DNA of 64,000 nt from a virus. A program made the position numbers and the translations under genes. The notes beneath the pieces are model-generated. The model made no database searches and was not told the DNA's origin. It saw only the letters and a program-made list of their open reading frames with translations. The stretch lies in the IMG/VR virus record IMGVR_UViG_3300046169_000069; one strand, written 5' to 3'. Each line of letters opens with the position of its first letter. Position 1 is the stretch's first letter. Positions 50,307 through 57,697 of the stretch are shown one piece after another.

Positions 50307-51011
50307 TTAAACTGCAGAAATGTCGTCAAGAACCATCTCACGAAATTCTTCAGAAGTCTCTGACCAGTCAAATACATAAGAAACGGTAACACGCCAGTCA
50401 TCTGTAGATGCGGCATGATACATTAACTTTTCTGGTTCGTCATAGTGTCCGAAGTATGCAGCCTTACAAGTCCATACTCCTGGCGTGTCTTGACAGCGAA
50501 CAACTTCTTTCGTTTCTGGGTGAATGTAGTCAAAGTAACCAGAACCATCTTCTGAGTAAGAGAAGATAAGATTAAAACCTGGCGCATTTGCATTGTTATG
50601 CCATGAGATATACCCGCCCGGTGGATAGACTGCTGCAAGTGCATTGTGTTTAACAGACAAGAAGTTCATCATCTTGTCGTTTAGATCACGTAGGTGATGA
50701 GTCATGTCACGTTTAAAGATTGGGTCTGCATCTTTTTCAAACATCTTATGTGCGCGGTCAGATAGTTTGAAGTTATATCCAACCATCTCTTCGGGAAATC
50801 CATCATGTCCCTTTCCCATTGCAACGATGTCATTCATGTATCCTTCACCAACGTAGTATGAACGTTGACGAATATGTTCTGCTGCAGTCAAGTGACAGTT
50901 CTTTTCAAAACCCTGCATAGTATGCAATTTGGCATACTGGTCTAAAACCTCTAGCAACTCTGGGTTATTTACCTCTACGTGCTTTAGATATTGGTCGTTT
51001 ACCTGTGTCAT
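50307..51011 (-). CDS. DSBH / 2OG-Fe oxygenase-like protein, paralog of 14007-14654
   Basis: YPPGGYISWHNNANA.GFNLIF...YHAA.T..WRVT.SY. Confidence 0.6.
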   Translation of the reverse strand: MTQVNDQYLKHVEVNNPELLEVLDQYAKLHTMQGFEKNCHLTAAEHIRQRSYYVGEGYMNDIVAMGKGHDGFPEEMVGYNFKLSDRAHKMFEKDADPIFKRDMTHHLRDLNDKMMNFLSVKHNALAAVYPPGGYISWHNNANAPGFNLIFSYSEDGSGYFDYIHPETKEVVRCQDTPGVWTCKAAYFGHYDEPEKLMYHAASTDDWRVTVSYVFDWSETSEEFREMVLDDISAV

Positions 51012-51736
51012 ACGATTGGAGTATCCTTGTTCAACCCAGCCGAGAAGTGTCTTAAAATTACGGGTCCCGTCTCAGGTCGTGTTCTTGCCCAATTGAGGGC
51101 ATTGTAATAATTCCACCTCAAGTCATCATCAAAGATACCAACCTTGAGGTCCTTATACTTTTCTTCCTTCTCAGTTAACCACCAAAGCGAGAACTGATCC
51201 CAAGACTTGAGACTGTCTGCATACCCTTCTGGCCACCAAGAGTCGTTCATCTGTCTGAATGTCAAGTCCCACCAATCGTCCATGAATTCACGTACAATCG
51301 GTTTACTCATATCATACAAACAAACGCCACCGCATAATGTAAACTTCGCCATACCCTCTGGTGTAGAGAAGTCGCGTTCTGCGTAGATGTAATCTCTATC
51401 ATCTGTTAACGCAGAAAACACCACATCGTGGTCTTTCATCTCATCCCAAACTTTTACAATGTCTTCGTGCTCACATTCCATATCAGCATCAATGTACATT
51501 GTCAAGTCATACGGAGACTTTGCCATCCCCCACAACTTCGCACGGTAGTGATCATCACAAAAGATGATATCATCCGCGACTTCGCGACCACGATCATCAA
51601 TAAACCGTTCTTCGGTCACTAAACAAATCTTGCAATCCTCATAGTAATCTCTAATGGATTCGGCAAGATTCAATGCGTACAAATAAAAGTTGCGTTTCTT
51701 AGACGCAACTAACAAAAATCCTTTACTCTTTTCCAC
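51008..51736 (-). CDS. GT-A fold glycosyltransferase (GT8-like)
   Basis: A..LAESIR..., K.W....SPYD.TMYIDAD, GGV.LY, WDQ.SL, WNYY, ILRH. Confidence 0.75.
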   Translation of the reverse strand: MEKSKGFLLVASKKRNFYLYALNLAESIRDYYEDCKICLVTEERFIDDRGREVADDIIFCDDHYRAKLWGMAKSPYDLTMYIDADMECEHEDIVKVWDEMKDHDVVFSALTDDRDYIYAERDFSTPEGMAKFTLCGGVCLYDMSKPIVREFMDDWWDLTFRQMNDSWWPEGYADSLKSWDQFSLWWLTEKEEKYKDLKVGIFDDDLRWNYYNALNWARTRPETGPVILRHFSAGLNKDTPIV

Positions 51737-52291: not shown

Positions 52292-55200
52292 TTATGCAAC
52301 ACGTACGTATAATGTATATGTTTCAGTAACCTCTGTAAGCGTATCTGAAATCGTTGCACCCACGTAGTTACCCAAGAAAGATCTTGCATAGTTACCAACG
52401 TAATCTCGAGCATAGTTACCACCAAATGTACGTGAGTAATTACCTGTAAAGTCTCCAACATAGGCAGAGTCACGATTGCGTGAGTATGCACCAGAGTAGG
52501 CCGAGTTACGGACACGAGCGTATGCAGATACACGTACGCGTGAGTAGTTACCTACGAAGTCGCGTGAGTAAGTGCCAGTGTATTCACCAGTAAATGTACG
52601 TGAATAATCACCGACATAGTTGCCACCGAAGTCGCGAGTATATGTGCCAGTGTATTCACCAGCAAAGTCACGGGAGTAGTTACCTACATATTCCCCAGCG
52701 AAGCCGCGTGAGTAGTTGCCCGCATACTGACCAGAGAAGTCGCGAGTATATGTGCCAGTGTATTCACCCGCGAATCCACGAGCATAGTTACCTACGAAGT
52801 CGCCGACAAAGTCACTTGCATAAGCCCCAGTGTATTCACCAGCAAATGTTCTTGCATAGTTACCAGTAAAGTCTCCAGCAAAATCACGTGCATAATTACC
52901 AGCAAATGTTCTTGCATAGTTACCAGTAAATGTGGCATTATATGTTCCCGCATACTCACCAACAAATCCACGTGAGTAAGCACCAGTATATTCACCAACG
53001 AAGTTGTTGTTGTAAGTACCAGTGTATGCGCCTGTGTATTCACCTACGAATGTTCGGTTATAAGTTCCTGCGTATTCGCCAACAAATCCACGTGAATAGT
53101 TACCCGCAAAGTTTCCACCAAAGTCACGTGCGTAGTTTCCTACGTAGTTTCCACCGAAGTCTCCAACAAAATCACCGATAAAGTTACCAGCGAAGTTACG
53201 AGAGTAGTTACCAGTGAATGTGCGTGAGTAGTTGCCTGCAAAATCTCCAGCGAAGTCACGCGAGTAGTTACCAGTGAATGTACGTGAATAGTTACCAGCA
53301 AAGTTTCCTGCAAAGTTAGTCACACGATCACGAGCATATGTTGATGCGCGGTTGCGGATGTATGCAGAAACACGAGTCACGACATATGCAGAGTAACGAG
53401 TACGAGTAGATGTACGAGTATACTCACCAGTAAAGTTACCGGCATATTCACCCGCGAATCCACGAGCATAGTTACCTACAAAGTCACCTGCATAGTTACG
53501 GGCGTAGTTACCGATAAAGTTACCAGCGAAATTTGTTACTCTATCACGAGTGAAGTTACCTATGTAATCAGTAATTCGTGTACGTGCATACGAAGAGTTG
53601 CGATTACGCGTAGATGTACGTGTTGATGTACGAGTAAAGTTACCTGTGTAATCAGTAATTCGTGTACGTGCATAAGCTGAGTAACGTGTGCGTGTTGAAG
53701 TAATTGTCGATACACGTGTGAAGTTGCCTACGTAGTTTGTTACGCGATCACGAGCGTAAGCTGAGTTACGTGTACGAGTATAGTTTGTTGCACGAGTTCT
53801 TGCATAAGCACTGTAACGAGTACGAGTAGATGTGCGCGTAGATGTACGAGTAAAGTCACCAACATAGTTAGTAATACGAGTACGTGAGTAGGCACTGTAA
53901 CGAGTACGTGTTGAAGTACGTGTTGACGTACGAGCATATTCACCTACGAAGTCACCAGCATAGTATCCAGTACGTGTGTAGTTACCTGTATTGGTAAAGG
54001 TCTGAACACGATTACGAGTGAACGCACGAGCGTAGTTACCTGTGTAGTACAATGTACGAGTGTAGTAACCAGTACCTGTACCCGTACGTGTTGACGTACG
54101 GCTGTAATTGCCTTCATATGAGAACGGACGACTACGAGTATAGTTTCCTACAAAATCACCAGTAAAGTTGGTTACACGATCACGTGAGTAGTTTCCAGCG
54201 TATGAGAACGCACGACTTCGATTATACGTAGAAGTACGGGTGCGCGTATAGTCGCGAGAGTAGTTTCCAGCGTAAGAGAATGCACGACTGCGAGTATAAT
54301 CCTCTGCGGATACACGAGTTCGGGCATAGTCCCCAACAAAGTTGCCGGTAAAAGAACCAGCCGTGCCTTGAGTAACCAACCCATAGTAATAATTTTGAAA
54401 AAGTTGCATTTGGAGAGTGCCTCTTGAATAGGTCACTCCATTGTGCGTAATTGAAGTTGCGTTGGCGTTAGTGCTGGTCGCAATAGTCGTAGCGTTAATA
54501 ACAACAGAAGCTCCCGCAGTACTCTTTAACCAATATGTGACATATTGGGCGTACTGAGTAGTACTTCCCGAATTAACAGAAGTTCGGGTTGATGTGCGTG
54601 CGTAGTTGCCTACATACGAAGTACCGCCCGTAACTCCAGTATAGTTTCCTACAAAGTTTCCTGTAAAAGAACCGCCAGAACCACTGTAAGTAACGCCGTA
54701 ACGAGTTTCCAGCCCAAAGTTCTCTCGGAAAGTGCCTCGATTATACGTGACACCACCATTGGTTATTGATGTCATGGTGGTTCCTTGCGCTATATAGCGA
54801 CAGAAGAACCGCCCACATAAACAATTACAGTACTGGATTCATTATCAATAACCCAACCATCTGTCACTGTGTTGAAAGGACTCTCCGAATAATCGTCAGT
54901 AGCACCACCAGAACCTGTAGAAACGCGAGTAGAAGTTCGGGTGAAATCTGTACTAGTTGGAGTTCCAGTGTAGTTACCTAAATAAGATCCCGTTCGGTTT
55001 CGAGTAAAGTTTCTTGAATAGTTTCCGCCGAAGTTGCGCGAATAATTACCCAAATAAGATCCAGTACGAGTACGGCCGTAGTTACCTATAAAGTTGCCTG
55101 CGTAGTTGACATCTGGTTCGCGAGTATAGTTACCCAAATAAGATCCGGTTCGTGTACGCGCATAGTTACCTACGAAGTCACCTGCGTAGTATAGAGTACG

Positions 55201-57697
55201 AGTATAGGCTGGGGTACGTGCATAGTCTGCAGCATAGTTACGTGCATAGTTGCCAGTGAAGTCGCCGACATAGTACAGTGTACGCTGATAGTTCAAAGTA
55301 CGTGTTGAAGTACGTGTTGATGTGCGTGAATAGTTTCCTACAAAATCACCAGCATAGTTACCAGCAAAACCACGAGAATAGTTGCCTACAAAGTCGCCAG
55401 TAAATGTAGTCGCGTAATTACCTACGAAATCACCACCGTAGTTGCCTGCGAATCCTCGAGCATAGTTGCCTACAAAGTCGCCTACATAGTCTCCGACATA
55501 ATTTCGGGCGTAGTTACCAATAAAGTTACCAGCGAATGTGGTTGTATAGTTGCCTGTGTAGTTACCTGCAAAGTCACCAGCGTATCCACGAGCATAGTTA
55601 CCTACGAAATCTCCGGTGAATACTGTAGTGTAGTTACCAACGAAATCGCCACCGTAGTTGCCCACAAATGTACGTGCATAGTTTCCTACGAAATCTCCGG
55701 TGAATACTGTTGTATAATTGCCAACAAAGTTACCAGCGTAGTTAGTAACACGGTCACGTGTGTATGCAGACGCACGAGTACGTGTTGACGTACGTGCATA
55801 AGCTGAGTAACGTGTTCTCGCAGAAGTACGAGTAGAAACACGAGCATAGTTACCTACGTAGTTTCCTGCAAATCCGCGTGAGTAGTTACCTACGAAGTTA
55901 CGCGAATAGTTGCCTTGGAAGTTACGTGAGTAGTTTCCAATAAAGTTGCCAGCAAAATCGGTCACACGATCGCGAACATATGAAGAAACACGGCCACGAG
56001 TAAACTCACCCGTGAAGTTAGTCACACGATTGCGTGTGTAAGTAGAAACACGGGCACGAGCATAAGCATTTGCAAAGTTAGTGACACGGTCGCGAGTGTA
56101 GTTAGTGATGCGGGTTCGTGTGTAATCTGCAGAGTATGCTGATGTGCGTGTACGAGTTGAAGTTCTTGTATAAGCTGAGTTACGAGTACGTGAGTATGTT
56201 CCGGCATAAGCTGATACACGGTTTCGTGAATATGTACCAGAGTATGTACCTGTGTATGAAGAAACACGAGTACGAGCGTAAGTGCCTGAATAGGCAGAGT
56301 TACGAGTACGTGCATATGTACCTGCATAAGCAGAAACACGACCACGAGTGTATGCAGAAGAACGAGAACGCGTGAACGTACCAGTAAAGTTCTGTACGCG
56401 ATTACGTGTGTAAGTAGAAACACGTGCGCGTGAGTAAGTTCCCGCAAAGTAACCAGTAAATGCAGTTAGTCTATTACGAGAATATGTAGAGATACGGTTA
56501 CGAGCATACGCGCCAGAGTACGCAGATGTGCGTGTGCGCGAATATGTTCCAACGTATGTTGAGACACGGGTTCTCGCATAAGTGTCTGAATACGCGGATG
56601 TACGAGTTCGTGAGTAGGTTCCTGTATAAGAGGAAACACGTGTACGAGTGTAATCAGCCGAGTAAGTAGAAACACGATTGCGAATATAAGTCCCTTCATA
56701 TGAAGATGGTCGCGTACGAGTGTACTCTCCGACGAAATCTCGAGAATAGTTACCTACGAAATCTCTATTATATGTTCCTGTGTAGTCTCCAACAAAGGTG
56801 CGGGAGAATGTATCTACACTATTACGTGTGTATGTTGAAACTCTATCGCGAGTGTAAGCCGAAATACGCGTACGTGCGTATGATGAGTTACGTGTGCGAG
56901 AGTATGAACTATTTACAATAGTACGTCGGGTGTTAGTTGCATCACCAACAACAGACCATGTTCCAGGCAGTGTTGGTACACCTTGCGCAGCTGAACGGAA
57001 CTGATAAGATCCGATCGCACCGGCCGTCGCACGGAGGGATTTGACACGTTGACCAATAGTATATTTGATCTGATCATCCGACATTTCTTTGAATCCGTCA
57101 AAGTTGGATGACCCATCGTAACAAATAGCAACGGGACGCACTGCGTTAACCACAGGCATCGTTACACGTTGATAGATGTTGTAATTTGTTACTGTACCAT
57201 CACCGTGTGTGTCTGAGAAGACATTTGCGAGGAAGACCGTATAGTCTGCGCCAGGTGATGTACTAGAAAGTTTGAATGTACCGACATAGTCATTCTGGAC
57301 CATGTTACTGAGTACACGACTTGCAAGATTATCCAAATCTGGATCTACCATTTCGTAGAAGCCTGGATTTGGGGCCTGAGTCATAATAACCCACAGGACG
57401 AACAAAATCGGCACCAGTTTCATCTGCAACACCGCCCACCTGACGTAGAGGTGTGGTTACAGTTGTAGATGTGATATTAGTAATTGGGTGAGTGCCCGCA
57501 GATTCATTAAAATACGCGTCCGTAAATGAACCAATATTAACATCACCAGTTAAACTGATATCTCCGACTTCACCAGCAGATGCATCTGCTAATGCTTGTC
57601 CCACCGCATAAGAAAGATAGTTCTCTTCTAGCGGTGTAAATTCCTGTAGGTCACCATTAGTATTTTTAATTTTTAGTGGGATACTAGATGCTGACAC
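52292..57697 (-). CDS. ~1,800-aa self-complementary tetrapeptide-repeat protein (putative beta-ribbon fibre with two tip domains); three track ORFs joined across frameshifts near 57372 and 54792
   Basis: Late promoter upstream, globular N-domain, two 648-codon arms of [YFRS]-x-[RGST]-x units flanking a 2-domain loop, and a short C-terminal strand. Confidence 0.8.
52355..54298 (-). repeat. C-terminal arm: 160 tetrapeptide units plus 4 dipeptides
   Basis: YTRS RAFS ... FLGN YVGA; 1944 nt. Confidence 0.9.
54961..56904 (-). repeat. N-terminal arm: 160 tetrapeptide units plus 4 dipeptides (12-nt periodic coding repeat)
   Basis: YSRT RNSS YART ... YLGN YTGT; 1944 nt. Confidence 0.9.

What the first reader, a model, noticed from the sequence alone, without database searches (positions are those of the whole stretch)
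53563..55710. Compensatory 84-nt duplications at mirror positions in the two arms
Seen directly. In the N-arm, CCTACGAAATCTCCGGTGAATACTGT occurs at 55601 and 55685, 84 nt apart, within units YTTV FTGD FVGN (n100-102 and n107-109). In the C-arm, TGTAATCAGTAATTCGTGTACGTGCATA occurs at 53563 and 53647, also 84 nt apart, covering YART RITD Y (c103-101 and c110-108). The two duplicated blocks differ in sequence and lie about 2 kb apart, yet have the same 7-unit period and are partners in the hairpin register. Inference: the stem lengthens by paired duplications, which implies strong selection on pairing, or a mechanism that expands both arms together. This supports the hairpin model independently of the amino-acid pairing.
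Basis: partly seen in the sequence, partly recalled or inferred. Interest (0 to 1): 0.8.

Follow-up and report, generated by a model that had tools for sequence, protein, structure and literature searches.

The report
Paired duplications in fold-back phage fibre
A giant tail-fibre gene of a marine T4-like phage is built of four-residue repeats whose first and second halves match rung by rung in opposite directions, and the fibre changes length only through equal-sized duplications or deletions at mirror positions in both halves, much as an RNA stem evolves.

Summary
Exact 26-nt (55601/55685) and 28-nt (53563/53647) repeats lie 84 nt apart, inside 7-unit tandem duplications at rungs n98-111 and c100-113.

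They are not an isolated coincidence.
- Other within-arm repeats are mirrored too: lag 7 at n119/c120, lag 10 at n47/c47, lag 5 at n67/c69.
- The two arms follow a pairing code in one ungapped antiparallel register: RxSx lies only opposite [FY]xGx, and Arg is almost never opposite Arg.
- In 31 relatives, arm lengths of 304-846 aa co-vary with r = 0.997.
- Close relatives differ by equal paired indels: 28/28, 40/40, 44/44, 84/84 and 176/176 aa.
- The same 7-unit module occurs 1, about 2.5 or 4 times in both arms.
- One relative has an unpaired 24-aa deletion.

Relatives encode one ORF of about 1,800 aa. The window's three ORFs come from two small insertions that are probably sequence errors.

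The best reading is a fold-back beta fibre whose length is tuned by compensatory module duplication. The 3-D fold is unproven because AlphaFold2 failed. I found no Pfam family, PDB sequence relative or paper for it. The scan's other notes on this hairpin concern this same stretch, not other DNA.

The parts
52292..57697 (-). Whole fibre gene. Here it is three ORF fragments (57329-57697, 54790-57432, 52292-54775). In relatives it is one ORF of 1163-3347 codons.
   Evidence: The window is 98.8% identical to L008 apart from one extra C and one extra TA.
56905..57697 (-). N-terminal non-repeat domain (about 262 aa in the intact form). One extra C in the C-run 57371-57374 shifts the frame.
   Evidence: AlphaFold2 model pLDDT 71. 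No clear PDB match; the best is T4 gp11 at Z 4.7 over 43 residues.
54925..56904 (-). N arm: 165 four-residue units n1-n165, counted from the base. Units n2-n134 (55297-56892) pair without a gap with c2-c134.
54359..54924 (-). Tip: two homologous domains of about 60-70 aa flanking a short repeat stretch. An extra TA at 54795-54796 creates the apparent stop/start between ORFs A and B.
   Evidence: pairwise E = 2e-7 between the two tip domains.
52355..54358 (-). C arm: 167 four-residue units, c1 at 52355-52366, counted from the base (the C-terminal end). Units c2-c134 = 52367-53962.
52292..52354 (-). Conserved C-terminal tail ending ...ETYTLYVRVA, plus the stop codon. The motif YTLYVR[TVI]A ends most of the distant family members examined.
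55573..55740 (-). N-arm tandem duplication of a 7-unit (84-nt) module, n98-104 and n105-111. It holds the exact 26-nt repeat at 55601 and 55685.
53543..53710 (-). C-arm tandem duplication of the partner 7-unit module, c100-106 and c107-113. It holds the exact 28-nt repeat at 53563 and 53647.
55378..55482 (-). Second mirrored lag-7 repeat, N arm: exact 21 nt at 55378 and 55462 (n119-121, n126-128).
53808..53908 (-). Second mirrored lag-7 repeat, C arm: exact 17 nt at 53808 and 53892 (c122-123, c129-130).
56113..56352 (-). Mirrored lag-10 (120-nt) repeat, N arm, about n47-n66.
   Evidence: family D10, spacing 120.
52907..53146 (-). Mirrored lag-10 repeat, C arm, about c47-c66 (exact 17 nt at 52959 and 53079).

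Best explanation
Window 52292-57697 (minus strand) is one giant tail-fibre gene of a T4-like marine phage.

Shown:
- After an N-terminal domain of about 260 aa, the protein has an array of about 165 four-residue units, a tip, a second array of about 167 units and a short conserved C-terminal tail.
- Unit n_i, counted from the start of the first array, is complementary to unit c_i, counted back from the end of the second array. Complementarity holds over 133 consecutive units without a gap.
- Across relatives the two arrays always change length together.

Inferred:
- The two arrays lie side by side in opposite directions as a fold-back beta ribbon. The N-terminal domain and the C-terminal tail then meet at the base, and the tip domains sit at the far end.
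- On one face of the ribbon, position 1 faces position 1 (Tyr:Tyr, or Arg:Phe). Position 3 faces position 3 of the neighbouring unit (Arg:Gly or Arg:Ser, almost never Arg:Arg).
- Because every rung must be matched, a slippage or unequal-recombination event that adds or removes repeat modules in one arm leaves a bulge. The bulge is cured when the partner module in the other arm is duplicated or deleted too.
- The two 84-nt duplications in the finding are one such pair. The same 7-unit module has copy numbers of 1, about 2.5 and 4 in both arms of different relatives. Paired module duplication is therefore how the fibre's length is tuned.

Not shown: the oligomeric state (a trimer giving six strands, as in the T4 gp37 needle, is one possibility) and the exact fold.
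For: 1. Pairing code. Antiparallel unit-class mutual information is 0.75 bits at offset 0, against a background of 0.17 +/- 0.08 and a parallel maximum of 0.33. All 34 RxSx-type units of the N arm face [FY]xGx (32) or an unclassified unit (2). There are no Rx:Rx or Rx:aR pairs.
2. The same code in 20 relatives. Position 3 against position 3 gives R:G 1163, R:S 559 and R:R 6. Position 1 against position 1 gives Y:Y 894, R:F 798 and R:R 0.
3. Every one of 32 complete, non-identical relatives of 1163-2282 aa has its best antiparallel match anchored at the base. In 31 it is one ungapped segment of 75-212 units scoring 55-134; L025 has it split in two. The best parallel match scores 14-67.
4. The distance from the base to the first irregular RTLYY-type rung is 304-846 aa in the N arm. 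It matches the C arm with r = 0.997 and a mean difference of 1.6 aa.
5. Equal paired indels between relatives of 80-93% identity: 176/176, 28/28, 44/44, 40/40, 84/84, 102/102, and 12+16 against 12+16 aa. The 28/28 case is a 7-unit tandem duplication in both arms at rungs of about 100-110.
6. Copy-number series of the very module duplicated in the window: L052 has 1 copy, L051 about 2.5 and L065 has 4, the same in both arms. Identities between copies run in parallel in the two arms, for example 67, 73, 66 of 84 against 66, 75, 66 of 84. With each C-arm block taken at the same rungs as its N-arm partner, the correlation over all copy pairs is r = 0.88 in L065 and r = 0.63 in the window.
7. Within the window, mirrored repeats share lag and rung.
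8. Tail-fibre context: a tail-fibre assembly chaperone (PF16778) lies upstream and an LtfC-like protein downstream.
9. In C48C1 the C arm is interrupted by globular inserts of 127-328 aa while the N arm runs on. This fits side domains hanging off a paired stem.
Against: - There is no structure. AlphaFold2 on a 532-aa tip-plus-stem construct gave pLDDT 26, and the ESM Atlas gave nothing useful.
- The scoring matrix was trained on this window and the relatives are homologous. The pairing scores in relatives are therefore not fully independent, although the indel and length tests do not use the matrix.
- L025 differs from L023 (99.9% identical) by a 24-aa deletion in the C arm only.
- Several strong C-arm nucleotide repeats have no equally conserved N-arm partner.
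- Beyond about rung 134 the register slips and my unit classes no longer follow it.
- In most distant family members the window-trained code scores weakly, and a code-free Arg-density test was uninformative.
Confidence: 0.85

Rival explanations
1. The arms do pair in antiparallel, but between different chains. The N arm of one chain lies against the C arm of another in a head-to-tail dimer or higher oligomer, rather than within one folded-back chain.
For: Sequence covariation cannot tell pairing within a chain from pairing between chains. In this window the arms even sit on separate ORFs.
Against: The ORF split is caused by a 2-nt insertion absent from all relatives, which encode one chain. 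In the L014/L017 lineage the tip is only a short irregular turn region, which suits a hairpin. The N-terminal domain and the conserved C-terminal tail would be brought together at one end. A phage fibre needs one attachment end and one free end.
Confidence: 0.12
2. The paired length differences are not made by two separate duplications. They arise when the whole distal part of the hairpin is swapped between phages by homologous recombination. That part (distal N arm, tip, distal C arm) is one contiguous piece of DNA, so a swap changes both arms at once.
For: The distal hairpin is contiguous in the gene. The locus is mosaic: the window and L008 are 98.4% identical over 11 kb and diverge abruptly upstream of 57968. 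Tips differ strongly between otherwise close relatives.
Against: Cassette exchange moves length variants around but does not create them. In the window, L013 and L065 the extra units are tandem copies of the neighbouring module in each arm, with matching divergence. This points to duplication in place. The two explanations can both be true.
Confidence: 0.25
3. It is chance. Two long arrays with a 12-nt period and similar composition will show many repeats at multiples of 12, and some will coincide.
For: Period-84 spacings recur in several repeat families of both arms. The C arm holds many repeats with no N-arm partner. With the orientation flipped, one shift in 165 also matched 4 peaks.
Against: In the register fixed by the pairing code, 6 of 9 peaks match, against a null mean of 0.35 and maximum of 2. 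Relatives show the same module at copy numbers 1, about 2.5 and 4 in both arms, and arm lengths correlate at r = 0.997.
Confidence: 0.02
4. The mirror symmetry comes from a nucleic-acid stem. The two halves of the gene or its mRNA would base-pair, and the amino-acid complementarity would be a by-product.
For: The evolutionary pattern (compensatory changes, paired indels) is the one known from RNA stems.
Against: Base complementarity, including G:U, at the mirror register is 0.46. That lies inside the spread of all diagonals (mean 0.37, sd 0.07, maximum 0.49). The inverted-repeat search found only six pairs of 14-15 nt.
Confidence: 0.01

Closest known systems
Bacteriophage T4 gp37 distal long-tail-fibre 'needle' (domains D10/D11)
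   Same: It is a T4-type phage fibre in which the chain runs out to the receptor-binding tip and comes back. D11 (residues 882-1009) is nested inside D10 (811-881 plus 1010-1026). In the stem a glycine (G921) packs against a phenylalanine (F970) of another subunit, so that no other residue would fit there (PMC6957217). Small-against-aromatic packing is also the logic of the code seen here.
   Different: There is no detectable sequence or profile similarity. The gp37 needle is held by seven iron ions bound by histidines, and these arms contain no His at all. The gp37 stem has tens of residues per strand, against 300-850 here. No repeat code, module duplication or paired indels have been described for gp37. 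The trimeric state is unknown here.
SMC / Rad50 fold-back coiled-coil arms
   Same: The overall logic matches: N- and C-terminal halves of one chain run antiparallel to form a long rod, the two termini form the 'head' at one end, and a distinct domain sits at the turn. The SMC arm is about 49 nm long (PMC5526789). That the two halves of such arms must stay matched in length is my own knowledge, not tested here.
   Different: Those are alpha-helical heptad coiled coils in chromosome-organising ATPases. This protein has a four-residue period with alternating residues typical of beta strands, in a virion fibre. The resemblance is an analogy only.
Base-paired RNA stems (as a mode of evolution)
   Same: There is a pairing rule between antiparallel partners, forbidden pairs are excluded, and stem length changes by matched insertions on both sides.
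   Different: The pairing here is between amino-acid units. Nucleotide complementarity is absent.

Membership tests
Phage tail fibre (generic) | Encoded in the tail-fibre/baseplate module next to fibre assembly genes | tested here: met
   The upstream ORF 57817-58284 matches PF16778 (tail assembly chaperone, E = 8e-15) and tail-fibre-assembly PHROGs. The downstream ORF 49908-50258 matches LtfC-like / L-shaped tail fibre assembly. C48C1 annotates tail fibre genes on both sides.
Phage tail fibre (generic) | Long repetitive shaft with a distinct terminal domain | tested here: met
   There are about 330 four-residue units and two homologous tip domains.
T4 gp37-type needle | Out-and-back chain topology, with strands before and after the tip lying antiparallel | tested here: met
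   Inferred from covariation and paired indels, not from a structure.
T4 gp37-type needle | His-x-His motifs that bind iron along the core | tested here: not met
   There are 0 His in either arm and 0 HxH motifs in ORFs A and B.
T4 gp37-type needle | Sequence or profile similarity to gp37 | tested here: not met
   No Pfam family for A or B. No PDB sequence match for the N-terminal domain or the tip.
T4 gp37-type needle | gp10/gp11/gp12-type collar domain next to the needle | tested here: inconclusive
   The best structural match of the N-terminal domain model is T4 gp11, at Z 4.7 over only 43 aligned residues. Foldseek found nothing at E <= 0.001.
T4 gp37-type needle | Homotrimer | not testable with these tools
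   Only single-chain prediction is available, and it failed on the stem.
SMC/Rad50-type fold-back rod | Alpha-helical heptad coiled coil | tested here: not met
   The period is strictly 4 residues, with aromatic/Arg at position 1, Gly/Arg/Ser at position 3 and small polar residues at positions 2 and 4.
Beta-solenoid repeat proteins (e.g. pentapeptide repeats) | A constant coil length, so that repeats stack in register along the whole array | tested here: not met
   Tandem Repeats Finder periods vary from 12 to 108 nt along the arrays. The strong signal is antiparallel between the two halves, not in-register within an array.
Collagen-like phage fibre | Gly-X-Y triplet repeat | tested here: not met
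   The period is 4, and Gly occupies only part of the position-3 sites.

The most novel reading that the evidence does not exclude
This is a previously undescribed class of fibrous protein. It would be a very long beta ribbon, about 100-290 nm if fully extended, whose two antiparallel halves recognise each other through a simple residue pairing code (Arg:Gly/Ser, Arg:Phe, Tyr:Tyr). It therefore evolves like an RNA stem, by compensatory changes and paired module duplications. This gives phages a modular way to set fibre length and to hang receptor-binding domains on the stem.
Probability: 0.5. Interest if true: 0.95.

Novelty: new variant of a known kind. Interest (0 to 1): 0.85.

Why it matters
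If the arms really pair, three things follow.
- This would be a rare case where protein architecture can be read from sequence covariation within a single gene, as is done for RNA.
- It shows a simple evolutionary route, paired module duplication, by which a phage changes the reach of its fibre.
- It defines a large family, unannotated in Pfam and PHROGs: 518 cluster representatives at E < 1e-3, most of the 150 listed ending in YTLYVR[TVI]A. The family has a candidate pairing code that could be tested by structure determination.

It also matters for annotation. Genes like this are easily split or collapsed by assembly errors, as in this window and perhaps in L025.

Tried and rejected
- AlphaFold2 on the tip plus about 60 rungs per arm of L014 (532 aa, 6-sequence alignment) gave pLDDT 26 and no usable model.
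- The ESM Atlas look-up with ORF B gave only unnamed viral clusters scoring below 0.9.
- The N-terminal domain model (pLDDT 71) found nothing with Foldseek. VIA-align gave only weak matches, with T4 gp11 best at Z 4.7.
- PDB sequence searches with the N-terminal domain profile and the tip found nothing.
- A residue-level Smith-Waterman alignment with a matrix trained on single residues was corrupted by pseudocounts and was discarded. I replaced it with unit-class scoring.
- The raw correlation of the two lag maps was weak (0.07-0.11) because of the common 12-nt background. I replaced it with peak matching.
- A code-free test on distant family members, looking for anticorrelated Arg density, was uninformative.
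- Low gap penalties did not extend the chain reliably into the irregular region near the tip.
- The word-indexed protein search with the N-terminal domain returned only one protein.
- Seven literature searches found no description of this fibre type. The tail-fibre atlas paper does not mention a fold-back repeat fibre.
- I first read 'TAG ... AAGGA ... ATG' between ORFs A and B as a real gene boundary with a ribosome-binding site. I rejected this once L008 showed it to be coding sequence shifted by a TA insertion.
Full report
**What is at the locus**

The finding lies in two long minus-strand ORFs, A (54790-57432, 880 aa) and B (52292-54775, 827 aa), preceded by a 122-aa ORF (57329-57697).

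Both A and B consist mostly of four-residue units. Position 1 is Tyr, Phe, Arg or Ser. Position 3 is Gly, Arg, Ser or Thr. Positions 2 and 4 are small or polar residues.

The neighbouring genes place it in a tail-fibre module. A tail-fibre assembly chaperone (PF16778) lies upstream and an LtfC-like protein downstream.

The only GenBank phage with this gene is Phage C48C1 (Kyanoviridae), where the whole region is one ORF of 3347 codons. All complete IMG/VR relatives also have a single ORF, of 850-2282 codons.

The nearest relative, L008, is 98.8% identical across the gene. It differs by one C (C-run 57371-57374) and one TA (54795-54796), both extra in the window. Over 11 kb the window carries five such extra 1-2-nt insertions. 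Each splits an ORF that is intact in L008. The three-ORF state is therefore most likely a sequence error, and the natural product is one chain of about 1,800 aa.

**The observation**

They sit in period-84 tandem arrays.

The duplicated modules are then n98-104/n105-111 and c100-106/c107-113.

Nucleotide identity at lag 7 peaks at 0.77 in both arms (n97-98, c100-101). It peaks again at n119 (0.75) and c120 (0.74).

The 26-nt repeat is the longest exact repeat in the N arm. The second longest (21 nt, lag 7, n119-128) also has a lag-7 partner in the C arm (c122-130).

With a threshold of 0.72 on 5-unit windows, 6 of 9 N-arm peaks have a C-arm peak with the same lag within 3 rungs. Shifted registers give a mean of 0.35 and at most 2.

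These six peaks are not all independent. Lags 7, 18 and 25 come from one family of four module copies, which begin at rungs 100, 107, 114 and 125 in both arms. About three independent mirrored features remain: this module family, lag 10 at rung 47, and lag 5 at rungs 67-69.

**The register is fixed independently**

I classed units by positions 1 and 3 and compared A forwards with B backwards. This gives 0.75 bits of mutual information at offset 0. The background is 0.17 +/- 0.08, and the parallel orientation reaches at most 0.33.

All 34 Rx-type units of the N arm face [FY]xGx (32) or an unclassified unit (2). The same holds the other way round. Rx:Rx and Rx:aR pairs never occur.

In 20 relatives the most informative residue pairs are:
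- position 1 with position 1 of the same rung;
- position 3 with position 3 of the next rung;
- position 2 with position 4 of the next rung.

Together these define one consistent antiparallel residue register.

In that register, position 3 pairs are R:G 1163, R:S 559 and R:R 6. Position 1 pairs are Y:Y 894, R:F 798 and R:R 0. The partner of RxSx is Phe-type in over 90% of cases, against 62% Phe among all [FY]xGx units.

This looks like size and cation-pi complementarity on one face of a two-stranded sheet. That reading is an inference.

The net charge of the two arms per ten rungs is roughly constant.

The symmetry is not at the nucleic-acid level. Base complementarity at the mirror register is 0.46, within the spread of all diagonals, and there are no long inverted repeats.

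Each of 32 complete, non-identical relatives has its best antiparallel match anchored at the start of the N array and the end of the C array. In 31 of them it is a single ungapped run of 75-212 units.

A test that does not use my scoring matrix gives the same answer. I measured the distance from the base to the first irregular 'RTLYY'-type rung. It is 304-846 aa in the N arm and matches the C arm with r = 0.997. The usual difference is -1 or +5 aa, and about 13 distinct length classes are represented.

Ordinary global alignments of close relatives show equal indels in the two arms at roughly mirror positions:
- 176 aa against 156 + 20 aa (L014 vs L017)
- 120 + 56 against 176 aa (L011 vs L017)
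- 28/28 (L013 group vs L019 and L057)
- 44/44, 40/40, 84/84 and 102/102
- 12 + 16 against 12 + 16

The 28/28 case is a 7-unit tandem duplication present in both arms of L013 and absent from both arms of L019.

The module duplicated in the window reads RVTN-YAGN-FVGN-YTTV-FTGD-FVGN-YART in the N arm and faces FIGN-FAGN-RVTN-FTRD-YIGN-RITD-YART in the C arm. It occurs once in L052, about 2.5 times in L051 and four times in L065, always equally in both arms.

In L065 the identities between successive copies are 67, 73 and 66 of 84 in the N arm and 66, 75 and 66 of 84 in the C arm. With each C-arm block taken at the same rungs as its N-arm partner, the correlation over all six copy pairs is r = 0.88. 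The two arms therefore share one duplication history.

In C48C1 the chain of pairs continues through a C arm that is interrupted by globular inserts of 127-328 aa, while the N arm is continuous. That alignment used nearly free gap extension, so its segment boundaries are soft.

**The exception**

L025 is 99.9% identical to L023 but lacks 24 aa (72 nt) in the C arm only. The missing piece lies between two 36-nt periods that differ at one base. It could be a real slippage product, and so an unpaired intermediate, or a repeat collapsed during assembly. It shows that the rule is not absolute, or that such contigs need checking.

**How it most likely works**

The two arrays lie antiparallel as a fold-back ribbon. 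The N-terminal domain and the conserved C-terminal tail meet at the base, and the tip domains sit at the far end.

Slippage or unequal recombination in the 12-nt-periodic DNA changes one arm. Selection then keeps genomes in which the partner module has changed equally.

The matching divergence of copies in the two arms says the two events follow each other closely. Nothing requires a single concerted event. Exchange of the contiguous distal cassette between phages can then spread length variants.

A fully extended ribbon of 133-165 rungs would be about 180-220 nm long. This estimate comes from the standard rise per residue in a beta strand and is not measured here.

**Family and novelty**

A full HMMER scan with ORF B finds 518 cluster representatives at E < 1e-3, 92 of them below 1e-30. 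Most of the 150 listed end in YTLYVR[TVI]A.

Of 84 representatives with the C-terminal motif, 23 have their best antiparallel match anchored at the C-terminal base. Among those with a match score of 10 or more, the figure is 9 of 17. In the distant P0007, I read five 12-aa modules of one kind at the base of the N arm and five of another kind at the base of the C arm (read by eye).

No Pfam family, PDB sequence relative or paper describing this architecture was found.

The closest known parallel in phages is the out-and-back T4 gp37 needle, where a stem glycine packs on a phenylalanine of another subunit (PMC6957217). These arms, however, have no histidines and no similarity to gp37. SMC-type fold-back coiled coils (PMC5526789) are an architectural analogy only.

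**Limits**

There is no structural evidence, since AlphaFold2 failed on the stem. The oligomeric state is unknown, and pairing within a chain cannot be separated from pairing between chains. The relatives are phylogenetically related, so counts of residue pairs overstate the number of independent observations. Near the tip the register slips in ways I did not model.

The scan's earlier notes on the hairpin concern this same stretch of the same genome. I did not see their follow-up reports.

Noticed in passing
window 57371-57374, 54795-54796, 51973, 49688, 47372: Relative to the 98.4%-identical contig L008, the window has five extra 1-2-nt insertions, mostly in short base runs. Each splits an ORF that is intact in L008: the fibre gene twice, the 159-aa ORF after it, a 297-aa ORF and a fibre-like ORF of more than 550 aa. 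This pattern suggests sequencing or assembly errors in this genome record.
   Followed up: partly
window 54359-54924; L008:12803-13336: The tip holds two homologous domains of about 60-70 aa (pairwise E = 2e-7; shared motif SIT-x-GVTY-x-RGT) on either side of a short stretch of the same four-residue repeats. L009 lacks 92 aa here, about one domain. The L014/L017 lineage has no such domains, only a short irregular turn region.
   Followed up: partly
L001:5138-15181 (Phage C48C1, P0001): The C48C1 homologue (3347 aa) carries several globular inserts of about 130-330 aa in the C arm only. It also contains an exact tandem duplication of about 74 aa (RKTRHRSYLYY...NFSGQY, twice), which may be real or an assembly artefact. 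A related protein, P0002, has precomputed Pfam hits PF13385 and PF14312.
   Followed up: no
L025 against L023 (gene nt 4327-4398 of L023): A 72-nt deletion in the C arm only, between two near-identical 36-nt periods, in contigs that are otherwise 99.9% identical. It is either an unpaired intermediate or a collapsed repeat.
   Followed up: partly
window 52355-56904: The 1,328 residues of the two arms contain no Lys, His, Cys or Trp and only 5 Pro. Arg is the only basic residue, and the net charge is about +104.
   Followed up: no
window about 57968: Similarity between the window and L008 ends abruptly inside the chaperone gene just upstream of the fibre gene. This looks like a recombination boundary beside the fibre gene.
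   Followed up: no
window 50307-51736: The two ORFs downstream of the fibre gene (242 aa and 234 aa) had no Pfam family at E <= 0.01 and no PHROG at E <= 0.001. The scan's first-stage notes call them a glycosyltransferase and an oxygenase. I did not test that further.
   Followed up: no
window 55250-55300 and 53960-54070 (rungs about 135-143): Irregular five-residue elements (RTLYY / RTGYY) occur at about the same rungs in both arms: n136 and n143 against c135 and c142. Even one-residue departures from the four-residue period appear to be mirrored.
   Followed up: partly
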